Shown here: one piece after another, positions 8,979 through 63,000 of the stretch
Layout: every line of letters starts with the position of its first letter
How positions within the stretch are numbered: position 1 is the first letter of the stretch
Made by a program: the position numbers
NCBI GenBank assembly: GCA_951406725.2
Contig: OX597816.1
Coordinates: forward strand, 434,001 to 498,000
Direction of reading: 5' to 3'
Length of the DNA stretch: 64,000 nt
Origin: Octopus vulgaris
Taxonomy: Eukaryota

Positions 8979-11900
8979 ACACACACATTGATCGAGATGT
9001 CCCTTTTAAATGACAAAAATACTTTCGCAAAAAAAAGATGGAGAGACAATTTATAGAACATTATTATCAAAATCTATGTTCTAACAGGATTAAACATTGT
9101 AACAAAAAGAAATAAAATCACTTACCATGATAGTTATATCCAAATTTATTAATGCCTCTACGGTCAAAGCCCCTGGAATTGTAACCAAACTGATCATAAC
9201 CAGATCTACTTATGATTTTCACATGAATATTAGGATTTTTCTCAACAGCACTTAACTCTGACACATGCAAATGAGCAGTTTTGTTGCATGGTCGACCCTT
9301 TCCTGGAGGACTGTAAGTCACACAGAGGTCATTTTCTAGATCAAGAACATCCAATGGTGCCGTATTGAATGGAACCATTGGAATATTTCCATAGGCTGCT
9401 GGGAATTTAAATTTGTTGTGGCCCATTTTCTGCCAGGTGGCATATAATCTGTCAATGTAGGTTTGAATGATGTAGAAGAGAGGGTCGTAAGCCATTGCGG
9501 TCGTTGACATATCACCACCAACAAAGGAATGGATATACGCTGCAAATGTCTCCAGAAGTTCACTCATTTCAATGAAATCTGTTTTACTGATGGCAGCAGC
9601 AACATCAAGCATTGTTGGGACCTCAACAATATGGCTGAAATTCCTTTTCAGGCATGGTTTCCAAGCATTACTGTTAAAAAAAAAGAACAATTAATAATAT
9701 AAAGGAGCCTGAGAAGTATTAATTGCCCTTAATTAAATCCCATTTTAATCAAATCTTAAATTATTCTTTTTTATGTTGACCACACTTTTTAAAATCTTAA
9801 GTCTTAACAAAGCAAAAAATAGGTTCATTCAAGCTTAATTTTAAGATTAGTGGTCATTATCATGTTAATCTTAAGATCTCAAGTAAATGTTTTCCATTCG
9901 AATATAATAAAGATAGGATTTTTGAGAAGTAAAATGATGTTTATATTCAAATGGATGCAGTTTTGTGGCAATAGTGCTTAAAAGAAGATTACTCTGTGTA
10001 CACACAGAAACACACACACACAGCACATTCAGGAAAGATATACAATACTAGAAACCAAGCCCCAAACACAAGCTACATGAGAAGCTTGGTCTTTTGACCC
10101 ATGTAGCAGGACAAAATCTTCAAATAAGAACAGACACAGACCATGGTGACACATTCAAGTGATGCCAGCATGGAAAACAAACAGAAAATAATGATGATGA
10201 CTGTGGGAAATACTGATTAATTGTTCCTATAATTAATTAAAATTCCTTTTTAAGAGTAACATGCAAAAACAACATTAAATAGTCACCTGTCACCAAAAGC
10301 ATGATCTGGAACACACCATCCCCATCCATCTCCTCCAAAGAAATTGGGCTGCCAGATGATGGCTTCTGAGAAGTTAGCAGCATCAGTTGTGAAATCAAAA
10401 TATGGTAAGGTAACGTGGCAGTCTATCTCTTTCAGTTGCAATTCAACAAGCTGCAAAAACTGGCGATGCCATGGAAGATAGAATGCCCCACCATGTGAAT
10501 GCATGTGATGAACCATGTAGAGGTCTCTGTATTTATTCCAGATATTGTCTATTCCTGACAAACGAAGCTGGGAAATAGCCTGCTGCAGTTTGGTCATCTC
10601 TTCCCAGGTGAAATCTCGAATTTCTTTGCGAAGAATTAAGTCAGAACATCTAGGAAAATATAAGCAAGTTCCAATGAGATGAAGAATTTTACAGACGGTA
10701 ATAATGGTTTCAAGCTTTGGCACAAGGCCGGCAGCTTTGTGGGGAGGAGTCTGTCAATTACACCAAGTAATTGACTGGTACTATTTTATAGACCCTGAAA
10801 CATCTACAAGTCTTGAACTCAAACTAATAACATATTCACAAATGAATAAACGAGATTCAAATTAATTCTTTTTTAATTTTCTTTTGACAATTTTCTTCAA
10901 ATTTTCCAGAACAATATTATAAATTCATTAAAAAGTTTTTATATTTAATTCCAGTTTCTAATTAGTATATATATCATCTATCACATTTTTTTAAAGTCTT
11001 GTTACCATATTTCTCTTTAGATACACTGCTTTGTTTCATTTCATTTTGAAAATAATGAAAAAGCTAATTTTGTTATTATTAGTGTTTGGAGTATAAATTA
11101 GTGTGACATTTTGAAAGATGGTTTTAATTTAGAGCAATTTAAACAGGAAGTTTGTATCATAGAACCAGGAGTAGTCTCAGGTCGGTTAATAACAAAAGAG
11201 TTAACATATTTGTATTCTTCGAAATACCAATTGCCATATTTAGTAATGTACACTACTTAAATGTTCTTTTATTCTTAATATTTTGATATAAGGTGGAGAG
11301 CTGGCATTTTGTCTGTCTTTACATTCTGAGTTCAAATCCTGCCAAAGTCAACTTTGCCTTTCATCCTTTCAGGGGTCATTAAAATATAATCAAGTTTCCC
11401 CCTCCTCCAAAATTTCAAGCCCTGTGCCTATCATGGAAAGAATTATTGATATTTTGATATGAATAAGGCAGTGAGTTGGCAGAATTGTTAGCAGACTGAA
11501 TGCTTAGCAGCCTTTTGTCCGTCTTCATGTTGTGAGTTCAAATTCTGTTGGGGTTGACTTTGCCTGTCATCTTTTCAGGGTCAATGAAATAAGAATCAGC
11601 TGAACACTGGGGTTGATTTAATCAACTCAGCCCCTTCCTCCAAACTCGCTGGCCTTGTGCCAAAATTCGAATCCAATATTTTGAGAGGAATATTCTTCTA
11701 ATATAGAATATCTATTACAAATGACAAGTAATTGTAATTATTATATTGTGAAAAATAAGGAATTATACTATTTTTATTACCTGCAGGAAATATCAAATTT
11801 GTATGTCAAGCCAAGTAAAACCATGGCCATGCATACATACAGGCATATCCTTTACGGCCATGCCCCACCTCCCTCACAATCCGTTTACCCAACCTCCATC

Positions 11901-60000: not shown

Positions 60001-63000
60001 TGGGTTTGTGCCAGGGAAAAGCACCACTGATGCCATATTTCTGCCAAGGCAGCTGCAGGAGAATTACATAGCCAAAGATAAACCTCTGTAGTTGGCCTTT
60101 CTTGACTAGGAGAAAGCCTTTGGCAGGGTCCTCCAATCCCTTATCTGGTGGTCAATGCGGAAACTAGGGATAAACAAGAGGTTGGGGAGTGCTGTAGAAG
60201 CCATGTACAAGGATGTTACCAGTAAAGTGAGGGTTGGCAATGAGAACTGTGAAGAATTCAGGCTACAAGTAGGGGTTCACCAAGGATCGGTGCTCAGCCC
60301 CTTCTTGTTCACTATAGTCCTCCTGGTAATAACAGAGGAATTTAAAGATAGGCTGACTCTGGGAGCTCCTCTATGCTGATGACCTTGCTCTTATAGCTGA
60401 ATCACTAGCAGAACTAGAGAAGTTCCAGGTATGGAAGCAAGGTCTAGAATCAAAGGGTCTTAGAGTTAACCTAGCAAAAACCAAAGTATTACTAAGTAGG
60501 AAGTCACGTAAATGCGCCCTGGTGTCATGCAAATGGCACCTGTACCAGTGGCACATAATAGCACCTATTGCACTTTCAGAGTGGCTGGTATTAGGAAGGG
60601 CATCCAGCCGTAGAAAACCATGTCAAATCAGACTGGAGTCTGGTGCAGCCTTCCAGCCTTGCCAGCCCAGTGAAACTGTGCAACCTATACCAGCATGGAC
60701 AACAGGCATAAAATGGTGATAATATTTTACTATGTTATATTTGATAAAAGGAATCTTTTCCAAAATATAATAGAATCATCAAACAACTTATGTAAGATGA
60801 TATAATATCTTCCTTTATTGACATGTTTTGCCTGACAACTGCATGGCTTGAAGGTTTTCTTAAAATATTTACATTATTTACGTGTAACCATGCTTCAAGC
60901 AAATTGCAGTACTCTTCATACTTTATTTGACTATGTTAAAAGTACATAAAGTACACATTTATTTTTTTATAGACAATAATATTACTATATCAGTCATTAT
61001 ACTAACAAATCTCTTGATAATTTGAGTGTTTCATTAACATTTTCCTATCCAGAAGGATGCTTTCAACATAACAGCCATCTACATGTATTCCATAAGTTTG
61101 TTTTATTCATCAACTTTTAAATATTTAATCCTTTTTCTGTTTTCATTTTCTTATCTCATAGATTCTCTTCGCTCATTAACCAATCACAATATTTCACTGC
61201 CATTAACAACAAACAAAATACATAAACATTTTGATAATCCTTCTGCCACAATAGCCTTGGTTTATTTCCTACAGTGTCTTGCAATTTGAAACTTTTCAAA
61301 CCTCTTCTTCTTTTCATACAATATATTCCCATATCCTTTGCTTGCTCAATGTTTCTTTTCTGACACCCTATATCCAATATTTTTCTGTTTATTTCTAACT
61401 GAAGTTCTCCATTACACGCTTAAAGTAATGCTTCTCTGTTATCTCAGTCTGATATTTCTAAAATAATAAGACTCACTGCCTATGTGATTATTTGTTCCAA
61501 CACTGTTTCATATCTGCCCAGAATAACAGACCTCGACAAATGGATCCCACAAACTCACTGAAATCATCATCATTATTCAACACTACTTTCCATGTTAGCA
61601 CAGGTTGAAGGAGTTGTCATGGTCTGATTTATTTCTTATTGGGAGCTAATGCTCCTTAAAAACTAGTGTTATTTGGCAAGGTTTCTACAGTTGAATCCCC
61701 TTTCTATTTCCAACCACTTTACAGAGTGGCACCAATGCTAGACAGGATGACTGGTCCTCAGGGAAACAATACCAAAGACACCTCACACTCCTACACTTTG
61801 CCTATTCACTTACTGTAGAGAGGTAACCTCACTTGATATTGACCTGTACAAGGCACAGGCAGTGGGGTGCCTTGAAGATAGTAAAAAAAGAGGAAAATAC
61901 TCAGTAATCGAAGGTATGTTGACCAAGGAAGGGAACAGGAGAGGGAGTAATGGTCAGAGATGGGTAATTGATGGGGATGGATATGTTTGAATATTTTCAC
62001 TACTATTCTCATTAACCAACTTGAAACTAATTAAGACATTAAGTGAAAACATTGAAAAATGGTAAATCTGTAAAAATAACAACTTGACAAATCAGAGAAT
62101 AACTTCACTTTCAGATTCTTGATTTAACCCTTTCATTATTAAATTTTTACTGAAATGCACTGCTTTTGTTGCAATTAATTTTGAAAACAATGTTGAATTT
62201 AGTATAATAATTGTCATTATTAATCTTTCGGTTATTATATTTCTGTGGCTTCATTTAATTTTGAAAACTATGAGGAATTTAGGGTTGGGGTAGTAGTAGG
62301 CACGGTTGTGTGATAAGAAGTTTGCTTCCCAAAACCTGTCTCCAGGTTCAGTCTCACTGCATGGCACCTTGGGCTTATCTTCTACTATAGCATCAAACCA
62401 ACCAAAGCCTTATGAGTGGATTTGATAGAAACTGAAAGAAGCTCATCGTATCATCATTTAACGTCCGCTTTCCATGCTAGCATGGGTTGGATGATTTGAC
62501 TGAGGACTGGTGAACCAGATGGCTGCACCAGGCTCCAATCTGATCTGACAGAATTTCTACAGCTCGATGCCCTTCCTAACACCAACCACTCCGAGAGTGT
62601 TGTGGGTGCTTTTATGTGCCACTGGCACGAGGGCCAGTTTGGCGGTACTGGCAATGGCCACGCTCAAATGGTGTTTTTAATGTGCCACCTGCACAGGAGC
62701 CAGTCCAGCAGCATTGGCAACAACCCCGCTCGAATGTTTATATATATATATATATTGTGAGTATGCATGCATATGTATATATACTTGAGTATATGCATCT
62801 TTGTGTGTGTGTTGGTGTGTTTATGTCCCTATAATTTATAACAGGCAAAAGAGACTGATAGAATAAGTACCAGGCTTAAAAAGAAAAACGTCCTGGGGTC
62901 AGTTCATTTAACTAAAAACTCAAAGGAGAGTGCCCCAGCATGACCACAGCCTGACTGAAACAGGTAAAAGATGATATTCACCCATTAATTACTAAATTCC

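What the first reader, a model, noticed from the sequence alone, without database searches (positions are those of the whole stretch)
9126..62012. Secreted mosaic protein: thrombospondin/NELL-like N-terminus fused to EGF, Kunitz and a tyrosinase-fold domain
Seen: eleven exons join in frame with matching intron phases (1,0,1,0,0,1,1,0,2,2). The order is SP-TSPN-coiled coil-vWC-EGF-Kunitz-GACC/vWC-like-tyrosinase fold-GYDxx repeats. Known: TSPN-coil-vWC is the oligomerising head of thrombospondin-1/NELL, and molluscan tyrosinases act in pigment and matrix cross-linking. I do not recall this domain combination being characterised. Inference: an oligomeric extracellular-matrix or scaffold protein, possibly in skin, egg case, beak or sucker matrix. 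The six-frame track shows only fragments of it.
Basis: partly seen in the sequence, partly recalled or inferred. Interest (0 to 1): 0.8.

Follow-up and report, generated by a model that had tools for sequence, protein, structure and literature searches.

The report
NELL-like stalk fused to copper-poor tyrosinase
An eleven-exon animal gene appears to encode a secreted, self-associating matrix protein whose thrombospondin/NELL-like front half is joined to EGF, Kunitz and a tyrosinase-like domain that has lost half of its copper-binding histidines, so it probably binds rather than catalyses.

Summary
I recovered eleven minus-strand exons (62012 to 9121, TGA at 9120-9118) independently. All ten introns are GT..AG, the phases are 1,0,1,0,0,1,1,0,2,2, and the total is 870 codons. 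All exons lie in sequence unique within the window.

- Confirmed exon by exon: VWC (first half only, below cut-off), EGF, a Kunitz split by an intron, and Tyrosinase in two exons (PDB).
- The heptad core runs in register across the exon 4/5 junction. Exon 4 alone is modelled as a parallel bundle (0.79 against best control 0.10).
- The "TSPN" exon is supported only as a LamG/ConA-like domain. Pfam and PDB found nothing.
- New: alignments to haemocyanins and Streptomyces tyrosinase show only 3 of 6 copper ligands kept (CuA Y-H-H, CuB A-H-Q). The Kunitz lacks Cys1 and Cys6 and has His at P1.
- Doubtful: the signal peptide, and the exon 8/9 link. The exon 8 donor is weak and an in-frame stop lies two codons beyond it.

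Best reading: a new mosaic of known modules, with a non-catalytic tyrosinase-like domain on an oligomeric stalk.

The parts
61844..62012 (-). Exon 1 (candidate): ATG at 62012, phase-1 donor at 61844 (score 1.6) or 61814 (score 3.2). Putative signal peptide whose hydrophobic core starts near residue 36.
   Evidence: Pfam gave 0 families. This is the weakest exon: the T/C-rich run may instead be a polypyrimidine tract before the AG at 61871/61870 (acceptor score 3.1).
52622..53166 (-). Exon 2: 181 codons, LamG/ConA-like ('TSPN-like') jelly-roll domain. Acceptor score 5.3, weak donor GAG|GTTTGT (1.9), phase 1 to 0.
   Evidence: Atlas top hit 0.95 to Laminin_G_3 clusters. Pfam none. PDB none. AF2 model pLDDT 43.4, mostly strands, unusable.
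49485..49551 (-). Exon 3: 22 codons. It reads like the last strands of the LamG-like domain and ends in W-T-C-P-K. Phase 0 to 1.
   Evidence: Best splice score in the interval (11.2). It exceeds all 177 opposite-strand control candidates. Unique sequence.
41446..41564 (-). Exon 4: linker plus coiled coil, with heptad core L15, V19, L22, V26, L29, V33, I36. Phase 1 to 0.
   Evidence: Top phase 1-to-0 candidate (7.8). Residues verified. Three copies modelled as a parallel bundle contacting at exactly these residues.
31259..31390 (-). Exon 5: the coil continues (N1, M4, I8, L11), then C14-E-C16, then the N-terminal half of a VWC domain. Phase 0 to 0.
   Evidence: Pfam VWC E = 1.5e-4, 22.4 bits, below the 27.6 cut-off, profile 1-25 of 57. 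Splice sites. Residues.
30950..30998 (-). Exon 6: 16 codons with 2 Cys, the second part of the VWC. The usual C-terminal CC-x-C end is absent. Phase 0 to 1.
   Evidence: No further phase 1-to-1 cassette candidate in intron 6.
28872..29093 (-). Exon 7: EGF domain (6 Cys) plus the N-half of a Kunitz domain (Cys at 51 and 67; His follows Cys51). Phase 1 to 1.
   Evidence: Pfam EGF 8.2e-6 (26.4 bits against 21.5) and Kunitz_BPTI 1.3e-5 (25.7 against 21), profile 5-35. PDB: Notch EGF repeats, best E = 1.7e-18. Cys positions.
17206..17348 (-). Exon 8: C-half of the Kunitz (Cys1, Cys14), then a tail with CC (23, 24) and Cys46. Weak donor CAG|GTCTGT (2.3), phase 1 to 0. An in-frame stop lies two codons past the donor (17199-17197).
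   Evidence: Pfam Kunitz_BPTI 1.8e-4 (22.1 bits against 21), profile 32-50. PDB: boophilin, TFPI and other Kunitz domains, aligned to residue 17 only..
12591..12841 (-). Exon 9: 83 codons, 7 Cys, an unassigned Cys-rich module. The end, G-C-K-N-C-I-C-x4-G-K-L-K-C, resembles the middle of a VWC. Phase 0 to 2.
   Evidence: Pfam none. PDB 0 hits at E up to 10. Atlas scores no higher than 0.84, leads only: SCRG1, PSP94, SVWC, VWC2L. AF2 model pLDDT 45.9. No ATG in the open frame upstream of the acceptor.
10287..10649 (-). Exon 10: N-part of the tyrosinase-like domain. CuA columns: Y40 (10531-10529), H52 (10495-10493), H61 (10468-10466). Extra His at 47, 48 and 50. Phase 2 to 2.
   Evidence: Pfam Tyrosinase 5.6e-12, profile 3-81. 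PDB: haemocyanins 4.7e-16, Streptomyces tyrosinase 1wx2 5.7e-11 with alignment. Residues.
9118..9670 (-). Exon 11: C-part of the tyrosinase-like domain. CuB columns: A43 (9543-9541), H47 (9531-9529), Q69 (9465-9463). Then about 85 residues and five G-[YFI]-[DN]-x-x pentads (9201-9127), G-K, and TGA at 9120-9118.
   Evidence: Pfam Tyrosinase 1.9e-8, profile 175-213. PDB: haemocyanins 3.7e-49 over 8 functional units, bacterial tyrosinases about 1e-6, with alignments. Residues and pentads.

Best explanation
One protein-coding gene on the minus strand (11 exons, about 870 codons, about 53 kb) encodes an extracellular, disulfide-rich mosaic protein.

Front half: a LamG-type domain, then a roughly 38-residue parallel coiled coil closed by a C-x-C motif, then a VWC and an EGF domain. 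This works like the head of NELL or thrombospondin-1/2, bringing several chains together (probably three; the number is not determined) and probably locking them with interchain disulfides.

Distal half: each chain carries a degenerate Kunitz module (no Cys1/Cys6, His at P1), an unassigned Cys-rich module, and a haemocyanin/tyrosinase-fold domain that keeps only three of the six copper-ligand histidines. That domain therefore most likely cannot hold the binuclear copper site and acts as a binding module rather than an oxidase. The chain ends in a short Gly/Tyr pentad tail that could be a substrate for oxidative cross-linking by genuine tyrosinases or peroxidases.

Shown here: the exon structure, the domain identities (except TSPN and exon 9), the ligand substitutions and the heptad register.

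Inferred: secretion, the oligomer number, a single transcript, loss of catalysis, and a matrix or scaffold role.
For: - Exon chain, phases and GT..AG introns. All exons lie in unique sequence.
- Pfam hits above the curated cut-off for EGF, both Kunitz halves and both Tyrosinase parts. The profile positions continue across introns.
- PDB alignments: the EGF matches Notch repeats and the Kunitz C-half matches boophilin and TFPI.
- Copper site: the CuB H-N-x-I-H and HH columns of all 8 functional units of three haemocyanins lie opposite A-A-Y-I-H and I-Q. The CuA-H1 column (H38 of 1wx2, and the FHG motif of haemocyanin) lies opposite Tyr40, while H52 and H61 keep the H2(8)H3 spacing. The motif definitions, and the Phe -4 / Asp +4 markers that fix Q69 as the CuB-H3 column, come from PMC3658974 (passages) together with the residue check.
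- Coiled coil: there are 11 consecutive a/d positions (L, V, L, V, L, V, I | N, M, I, L) across the phase-0 E4/E5 junction, followed by C-E-C.
- Complex prediction on E4 with 3 copies: score 0.79, best of 3 controls 0.10. The mark was reached by 21 of 30 proteins solved as pairs of one chain and by 0 of 23 solved as single chains. On eukaryotes it was reached by 17 of 29 (animals 7 of 16) and by 0 of 30 single chains. The runs agree in at least 100% of contacts and the partner pLDDT is at least 75. Contacts fall at 15, 19, 22, 26, 29, 33 and 36. The calibration used two copies, not three, and a pass for a coiled coil may reflect likeness to solved coiled coils.
- LamG-like call for E2: Atlas 0.95, and 10 of the 10 best hits with a family share its clan.
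- Single transcript: exon 9 has no upstream in-frame ATG, and no signal-peptide-like first exon with a phase-0 donor was found between E8 and E9 (0 candidates).
Against: - There is no transcript, orthologue or conservation evidence of any kind.
- The E8 donor is weak (2.3). Reading through it gives a stop two codons later, with AATAAA at 16752 and 16729, so a shorter gene ending at E8 is possible.
- The E2 donor (1.9) and the E1 donors (1.6 and 3.2) are also weak.
- The signal peptide is atypical, and E1 may not be the true first exon.
- The LamG call rests on language-model features alone, with only 125 of 256 shared features, and about 1 in 100 shuffled proteins reach 0.95. Pfam and PDB found nothing.
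- The first-exon scan is a crude heuristic.
- A His cluster (V-H-H-M-H-S-H, residues 46-52 of E10) sits next to the CuA site and might supply substitute ligands.
- The loss of ligands and of Kunitz cysteines is also what a decaying gene would show.
- After the E11 stop, the only polyA-like signal within 1.5 kb is ATTAAA at 8020.
Confidence: 0.45

Rival explanations
1. There are two neighbouring genes rather than a fusion. A NELL-like gene (LamG, coil, VWC, EGF, Kunitz) ends in exon 8 at the stop at 17199-17197. A separate gene encoding a Cys-rich module plus a tyrosinase-like domain uses exons 9-11 with a 5' exon I did not recognise.
For: The E8 donor is weak (2.3). An in-frame stop lies two codons beyond it, and AATAAA lies about 450 nt downstream at 16752 and 16729. 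The E8/E9 phase match (0/0) has a 1 in 3 chance by itself. Cephalopod and other molluscan tyrosinases are described as single-domain proteins in the passages I read.
Against: Exon 9 has no ATG in its open frame upstream of the acceptor, so it needs an upstream coding exon. The heuristic scan of 17190-12850 found 0 signal-peptide-like first exons with a phase-0 donor and 0 phase 0-to-0 cassette exons in intron 8. The exons are on the same strand, collinear, and only 4.4 kb apart.
Confidence: 0.25
2. The tyrosinase-like domain is still a metalloenzyme with a non-canonical site, for example a mononuclear copper or another metal held by H52, H61 and histidines of the adjacent H47/H48/H50 cluster. 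In that case the protein is an oligomeric matrix-bound oxidase.
For: CuA H2 and H3 and their 8-residue spacing are kept. The conserved Phe -4 (CuB; Tyr at CuA) and Asp +4 markers, P-W-H-R, and D-P-x-F are kept, so the fold and pocket look maintained. An unusual cluster of four His within six residues sits at the CuA site. TYRP2 is cited as using zinc instead of copper (PMC3658974, passage).
Against: In that same passage TYRP2 keeps all its histidines, whereas here CuB keeps 1 of 3 and CuA-H1 is Tyr. No structure model was possible, because a joined model was not to be made and single-exon folds were poor.
Confidence: 0.12
3. The gene is a recently shuffled or decaying gene, an expressed or silent pseudogene, whose degenerate Kunitz and copper sites reflect relaxed selection rather than a new function.
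For: Three of six copper ligands are lost. Kunitz Cys1 and Cys6 are lost and P1 is His. The VWC is truncated. Several donors are weak. The start is doubtful.
Against: There are 870 codons without a stop or frameshift over 11 exons. All 10 introns are GT..AG and all exons are free of the repeats that fill 35% of the window. Structural markers of each fold are kept (EGF 6 Cys, Kunitz Cys2-5, the tyrosinase core motifs) while only the functional residues changed.
Confidence: 0.1

Closest known systems
NELL1/NELL2 (vertebrate Nel-like proteins). Their architecture is recalled, not retrieved by a tool.
   Same: The order is the same: N-terminal LamG/TSPN-type domain, coiled coil, VWC, EGF. Both are presumed secreted oligomers.
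   Different: NELL has several VWC domains and six EGF repeats, and has no Kunitz or tyrosinase-fold domain. This gene has one truncated VWC and one EGF, followed by unrelated modules. No sequence-level match to NELL was obtained (one search found none for exon 2).
Thrombospondin-1/2 (subgroup A). Architecture recalled.
   Same: A TSPN-type head, a short parallel coiled coil flanked by cysteines that make interchain disulfides, then a VWC.
   Different: The window holds no TSR repeats, calcium-binding type-3 repeats or C-terminal lectin-like domain. The oligomer number here is unknown.
Alpha-subclass type-3 copper proteins: secreted molluscan tyrosinases and molluscan haemocyanin functional units (PMC3658974; PDB 6r83, 8trz, 3j32, 4yd9, 1js8, 1wx2).
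   Same: The best sequence matches of exons 10 and 11 are to these proteins. Kept features are P-W-H-R, the H2(8)H3 spacing, D-P-x-F and D-R, and no transmembrane end.
   Different: CuA-H1 is Tyr, CuB-H1 is Ala and CuB-H3 is Gln. There is no Cys two residues before CuA-H2 (it is His50). The domain sits at the end of a long mosaic chain rather than directly after a signal peptide.
Arthropod hexamerins and pseudo-haemocyanins (recalled analogy).
   Same: These are type-3 copper-fold proteins that lost their copper ligands and took on non-catalytic roles.
   Different: They belong to the other (arthropod, beta) subclass, are stand-alone hexamers, and are unrelated in domain context.
Very long lophotrochozoan 'tyrosinase' sequences with kielin/chordin-like domains, mentioned in PMC11667028 (one passage).
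   Same: Precedent that a tyrosinase domain can occur together with VWC-type modules in lophotrochozoans.
   Different: Those sequences are over 3000 residues and are mentioned only in passing. The passage reports no LamG, coiled coil, EGF or Kunitz, and says nothing about the state of the copper site.

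Membership tests
Tyrosinase / type-3 copper protein (Pfam PF00264) | Sequence match to the family profile above the curated cut-off | tested here: met
   46.9 and 35.4 bits against a cut-off of 22.6, profile 3-81 and 175-213. PDB tyrosinases and haemocyanins match down to 4.7e-16 and 3.7e-49.
Tyrosinase / type-3 copper protein (functional binuclear site) | Cu(A) motif H1(n)-H2(8)-H3 (PMC3658974) | tested here: not met
   H2 = H52 and H3 = H61 with 8 residues between them. 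The H1 column (H38 of 1wx2; FHG of haemocyanin) is Tyr40. Extra His at 47, 48 and 50 are not at the canonical column.
Tyrosinase / type-3 copper protein (functional binuclear site) | Cu(B) motif H1(3)-H2(n)-H3, with Phe four residues before and Asp four residues after H3 | tested here: not met
   H1 column is Ala43, H2 is His47, H3 column is Gln69. Phe65 and Asp73 are present and fix the column.
Kunitz/BPTI (PF00014) | Profile match above the cut-off | tested here: met
   25.7 and 22.1 bits against 21. Profile 5-35 in E7 and 32-50 in E8. PDB Kunitz domains match the E8 half.
Kunitz/BPTI (PF00014) | Six cysteines spaced C-x8-C-x15-C-x7-C-x12-C-x3-C (consensus recalled) | tested here: not met
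   The x15, x7 and x12 spacings are present (E7 Cys51 and Cys67, E8 Cys1 and Cys14). There is no Cys eight residues before Cys51, and the residue at +4 after E8 Cys14 is Thr. The next Cys are at 23 and 24.
Kunitz/BPTI serine-protease inhibitor (function) | Basic or otherwise suitable P1 residue directly after the second Cys (rule recalled from BPTI) | tested here: not met
   The residue after E7 Cys51 is His, followed by Glu.
EGF (PF00008) | Profile match above the cut-off and six cysteines | tested here: met
   26.4 bits against 21.5. Cys at 2, 7, 13, 24, 26 and 35 of E7. Notch EGF repeats match in the PDB.
VWC (PF00093) | Profile match above the cut-off and a complete 10-Cys module | tested here: inconclusive
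   The N-half alone scores 22.4 bits against 27.6, profile 1-25 of 57. E6 adds 2 Cys, and the C-terminal CC-x-C end is absent. The joined E5+E6 sequence was not searched.
TSPN / LamG (ConA-like lectin clan) | Recognisable match by profile, sequence or fold | tested here: inconclusive
   Pfam 0 families. PDB gave only a spurious hit at E = 0.18. Atlas features gave 0.95 to Laminin_G_3 clusters, with 125 of 256 features shared. The AF2 model had pLDDT 43.4, so no fold search was run.
NELL family | LamG/TSPN, coiled coil and VWC, followed by six EGF repeats and further C-terminal VWC domains (recalled) | tested here: not met
   The first three modules are present in order. Only one EGF is present, and there are no further Pfam VWC hits. 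This means 'works like the NELL head', not membership.
Thrombospondin subgroup A | TSR, EGF, type-3 repeats and a C-terminal domain after the TSPN-coil-VWC head (recalled) | tested here: not met
   None of these families was hit in any exon frame, and no extra cassette exons were found.
Coiled-coil oligomer | Continuous heptad a/d hydrophobic core and self-association | tested here: met
   11 a/d positions in register across E4/E5. Self-association model: 0.79 against best control 0.10, with the calibration counts given in the For line. This is a model, not a measurement, and the oligomer number was not tested beyond three copies.
Secreted protein | N-terminal signal peptide | tested here: inconclusive
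   The best 9-residue hydrophobic window starts at residue 36 of the E1 frame. No signal-peptide predictor was available, and no alternative first exon was found in 64000-53200.

The most novel reading that the evidence does not exclude
This is the first example of a mollusc-type (alpha-subclass) tyrosinase/haemocyanin-fold domain that has given up its binuclear copper centre and been recruited as a ligand-binding head. It is displayed in several copies on a disulfide-locked NELL/thrombospondin-like coiled-coil stalk. That would make it a new class of oligomeric extracellular matrix protein, parallel to the way arthropod hexamerins arose from haemocyanins, but built by exon shuffling.
Probability: 0.3. 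Interest if true: 0.7.

Novelty: new variant of a known kind. Interest (0 to 1): 0.5.

Why it matters
If the single-transcript model is right, this is a clean case of exon shuffling joining an oligomerising matrix head to an enzyme fold that then lost its catalytic metal site. It would give a testable example of how type-3 copper proteins are turned into non-enzymatic binding modules in lophotrochozoans. It would also be a candidate structural or regulatory component of quinone-tanned or tyrosine-cross-linked matrices. If instead the locus holds two genes, each is an ordinary family member and the interest is low.

Tried and rejected
1. The frame at 37180-36968 looked like a 'coiled coil'. I rejected it as an exon. 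It is a 69-nt tandem repeat (1.9 copies, 36870-36998) beside (TA)123. The frame shifts between copies and there are no usable donors. Pfam gave 0 families.
2. The frame at 30191-29997 was a candidate VWC end. It had no Pfam hit and no phase-compatible sites, and exon 6 at 30998-30950 fits instead.
3. An extra tyrosinase exon to fill Pfam profile positions 81-175. None was found (0 phase 2-to-2 cassettes in introns 9 and 10). The E10 end and E11 start read continuously against bacterial tyrosinase.
4. AF2 single-sequence folds of exon 2 (pLDDT 43.4) and exon 9 (pLDDT 45.9) were too poor. I therefore ran no fold search (0 of 3 used).
5. Continuation of the gene past the strong donor-like site at 9126. 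Of 8 downstream minus-strand frames, 0 showed a domain other than a weak RT fragment.
6. Alternative first exons. The heuristic found 0 candidates in 64000-53200 and 0 in 17190-12850.
7. One search, a paper search, failed because one phrase was too long. I re-sent it.
8. Not done:
The open genome-contig collection holds only bacteria and archaea, so I did not use it.
   - Supplementary tables of the tyrosinase and shell-matrix papers, which may list this protein, were closed.
- No tool established the taxon.

Full report
WHAT IS THERE

The window has 64,000 bases and no N. GC is 36-45% per 4 kb and CpG is depleted. It is a repeat-rich animal sequence: 35% of it recurs within the window. Its long non-coding stretches hold RVT_1 reverse-transcriptase fragments and a mariner-type transposase (HTH_48 + Transposase_1). 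I do not take it for human.

The gene in the finding lies on the minus strand. Stop-to-stop frames already show tyrosinase-like, EGF/Kunitz-like and other Cys-rich pieces.

REBUILDING THE MODEL

Pfam on ten separate frames gave:
- VWC: N-half only, 22.4 bits, below the 27.6 cut-off.
- EGF: 26.4 bits against 21.5.
- Kunitz_BPTI in two different frames: profile 5-35 and 32-50, both above the cut-off.
- Tyrosinase in two frames: profile 3-81 and 175-213, at 46.9 and 35.4 bits.

Splice-site and phase enumeration then fixed the boundaries. It also found three small exons that Pfam could not see:
- E6 at 30998-30950, the second part of the VWC.
- E3 at 49551-49485, the best-scoring candidate in its interval.
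- E4 at 41564-41446, the best phase 1-to-0 candidate.

The resulting eleven exons add up to 2610 nt = 870 codons. The running phases are 1,0,1,0,0,1,1,0,2,2, all ten introns are GT..AG, there is no internal stop, and TGA sits at 9120-9118.

Every exon lies in sequence unique within the window. In an opposite-strand control over the same 21 kb, none of 177 candidates reached E3's splice score of 11.2, and one reached E4's score of 7.8. E4 therefore rests mainly on its content. No convincing extra frame-preserving exon hides in any intron: there were 0 candidates in seven introns, and the six candidates in the other three introns are TE-derived or lack any domain feature.

THE MODULES

E2+E3, the 'TSPN'. 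Pfam found nothing. The PDB gave only a spurious hit at E = 0.18. A single-sequence AF2 model was unusable (pLDDT 43.4). The only positive evidence is from language-model features. The top cluster scores 0.95 and is 100% Laminin_G_3, 14 of 30 hits fall in that set, pentraxins also appear, and all 10 best hits with a family share a clan. Against that, only 125 of 256 features are shared, and 1 in 100 shuffled proteins also reach 0.95. I accept 'LamG/ConA-like jelly roll, probable'. The specific label TSPN is not shown.

E4/E5, the coiled coil. The hydrophobic core positions are L15, V19, L22, V26, L29, V33 and I36 in E4, continuing as N1, M4, I8 and L11 in E5. That is an unbroken 4-3-4-3 spacing across a phase-0 junction, immediately followed by C14-E-C16. 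Three copies of E4 alone were modelled as a parallel, in-register bundle touching at exactly those residues. The score was 0.79 against a best control of 0.10. The mark was reached by 21 of 30 proteins solved as one-chain pairs and by 0 of 23 single chains. On eukaryotes it was reached by 17 of 29 (animals 7 of 16) and by 0 of 30. The runs agree in at least 100% of contacts and the partner pLDDT is at least 75. The calibration used two copies, and coiled coils are well represented among solved structures. The pass therefore shows likeness to a coiled-coil oligomer. It does not show the number of chains or prove binding.

E5/E6, the VWC. It has eight of the usual ten cysteines, and the CC-x-C end is missing.

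E7, the EGF. It is a canonical six-Cys EGF closest to Notch repeats.

E7/E8, the Kunitz. It is split by a phase-1 intron. The x15, x7 and x12 cysteine spacings are kept. There is no Cys eight residues before the first Kunitz Cys, and the residue where the last Cys belongs is Thr. PDB alignments to boophilin, TFPI and others stop exactly there. The two missing cysteines are the pair that bond to each other in BPTI (recalled). The P1 position is His, followed by Glu (the P1 rule is recalled). I read this as a structural, probably non-inhibitory Kunitz.

E8 tail and E9. These carry ten further cysteines. They have no Pfam hit, no PDB hit (0 at E up to 10), only sub-threshold atlas leads (no higher than 0.84: SCRG1, PSP94, SVWC, VWC2L) and a poor fold (pLDDT 45.9).

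THE TYROSINASE-LIKE DOMAIN

E10 and E11 match molluscan haemocyanin functional units and bacterial tyrosinases. Aguilera et al. 2013 (PMC3658974, passages read) define Cu(A) as H1(n)-H2(8)-H3 and Cu(B) as H1(3)-H2(n)-H3, with a Phe four residues before each H3 and an Asp four residues after the CuB H3.

In the alignments to Streptomyces tyrosinase 1wx2 and to haemocyanin, the CuA-H1 column falls on Tyr40. H52 and H61 keep the 8-residue spacing, and the Phe -4 position is Tyr57. In CuB, the H-N-x-I-H of all eight functional units of three haemocyanins lies opposite A-A-Y-I-H, and their HH lies opposite I-Q. Phe65 and Asp73 bracket Gln69 and fix it as the H3 column.

So three of the six ligands remain. 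A cluster of extra histidines (H47, H48, H50) sits just before CuA-H2. The ligand residue numbers of 1wx2 are recalled, but the column identities follow from the motif definitions above.

After the domain come about 85 residues, and then five pentads, GYDQF, GYNSR, GFDRR, GINKF and GYNYH, before G-K-stop.

WEAK POINTS

1. Exon 1. The ATG at 62012 is followed by 35 mostly polar residues before the hydrophobic stretch. That stretch is encoded by a T/C-rich run ending in an AG with a fair acceptor score (3.1). E1 could therefore be an internal micro-exon, with the real 5' exon outside the window. Secretion is inferred from the domain content.

2. The E8/E9 link. The E8 donor is weak (2.3). An in-frame stop lies two codons beyond it, and AATAAA lies about 450 nt downstream. 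In favour of the link: E9 cannot start a protein because it has no upstream ATG in frame. My heuristic also found no first exon or cassette in the 4.4-kb intron.

3. The 3' end. A strong donor-like motif overlaps the last two codons, but nothing domain-like lies downstream. The nearest polyA-like signal is ATTAAA at 8020.

HOW IT MOST LIKELY WORKS

The front half works like the NELL or thrombospondin-1 head. A LamG-type domain is followed by a short parallel coiled coil that assembles several chains, and the adjacent C-x-C can lock the assembly with disulfides (this step is inferred).

The distal half presents, in several copies, degenerate Kunitz, Cys-rich and copper-poor tyrosinase-fold modules. 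With CuB reduced to one ligand, binuclear copper chemistry is unlikely. I think the domain is a binding module, perhaps for phenolic or Tyr/DOPA-rich partners. The Gly/Tyr tail is a possible cross-linking handle. Both ideas are inference.

The rivals are two separate genes (0.25), a non-canonical metalloenzyme (0.12) and a decaying gene (0.10).

COMPARISON AND NOVELTY

The protein is not a member of the NELL or thrombospondin families, because their downstream modules are absent. It is a member of the tyrosinase fold family by sequence, but it fails both copper-site definitions.

Eight full-text searches found no paper describing LamG/TSPN-coil-VWC-EGF-Kunitz-tyrosinase. The nearest items were:
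- A passing remark on very long tyrosinase sequences with kielin/chordin-like domains (PMC11667028, one passage).
- A note that one cephalopod tyrosinase clade holds only octopod sequences (preprint 10.1101/2021.07.10.451900, passages).
- Papers where TSPN and tyrosinase occur in different proteins (PMC7853314, passages; PMC8700984, passages).

Supplements were closed and protein databases could not be searched, so the gene may already exist as an automatic annotation.

I rate it a new variant of a known kind. The interest is moderate (0.5), because the central claim of one transcript with a non-catalytic domain is untested.

Noticed in passing
window 36542-36998 (minus-strand reading 37180-36790): A 69-nt tandem repeat (1.9 copies, 78% matches) sits next to a (TA)123 microsatellite. 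It translates into Ala/Ser/Glu-rich, coil-like text in two frames, but the frame shifts by one base between copies and there are no usable splice sites. It is an intronic minisatellite that could be mistaken for a coiled-coil exon.
   Followed up: yes
window 19202-19684 (+), 44230-45102 (+), 55331-55819 (-), 55875-56752 (+), 57736-58704 (-): Transposon remains lie inside the introns. There are three RVT_1 reverse-transcriptase fragments (E = 4.5e-16, 2.8e-7, 9e-17), a mariner-type transposase (HTH_48 9.9e-7 and Transposase_1 1.9e-24), and a 323-aa open frame with a weak PHD-like zinc finger that resembles the C-terminal part of the RT-bearing elements.
   Followed up: partly
window 61960-61870 (-): The T/C-rich run that encodes the supposed signal-peptide core also has the look of a polypyrimidine tract ending in an AG (acceptor score 3.1). 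Exon 1 may be an internal micro-exon (61870 to 61844 or 61814, phase 1 to 1), with the true 5' exon beyond the window.
   Followed up: partly
window 9126-9118 (-): A near-consensus donor motif (ATG|GTAAGT, score 6.7, the second highest in the gene) overlaps the last two sense codons and the TGA stop. No domain-like frame lies downstream (0 of 8 frames). An alternative 3' exon cannot be ruled out without RNA data.
   Followed up: partly
window 10510-10493 (-), exon 10 residues 47-52: An unusual run of histidines (H-H-M-H-S-H) sits directly before the CuA H2 position of the tyrosinase-like domain, in a loop that is shorter than in the aligned haemocyanins and Streptomyces tyrosinase. It might form an alternative metal site.
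   Followed up: no
window 1-2200, 14550-15050, 29140-29630, 32030-32490, 38000-38400, 45330-45720, 53700-54260 and others: Many copies, on both strands, of a short interspersed repeat recur across the window. Its translations repeat in the ORF list as Trp/Cys/His-rich text, and the copies are often flanked by (TA)n, (CA)n or (TATG)n microsatellites. I did not classify the repeat.
   Followed up: no
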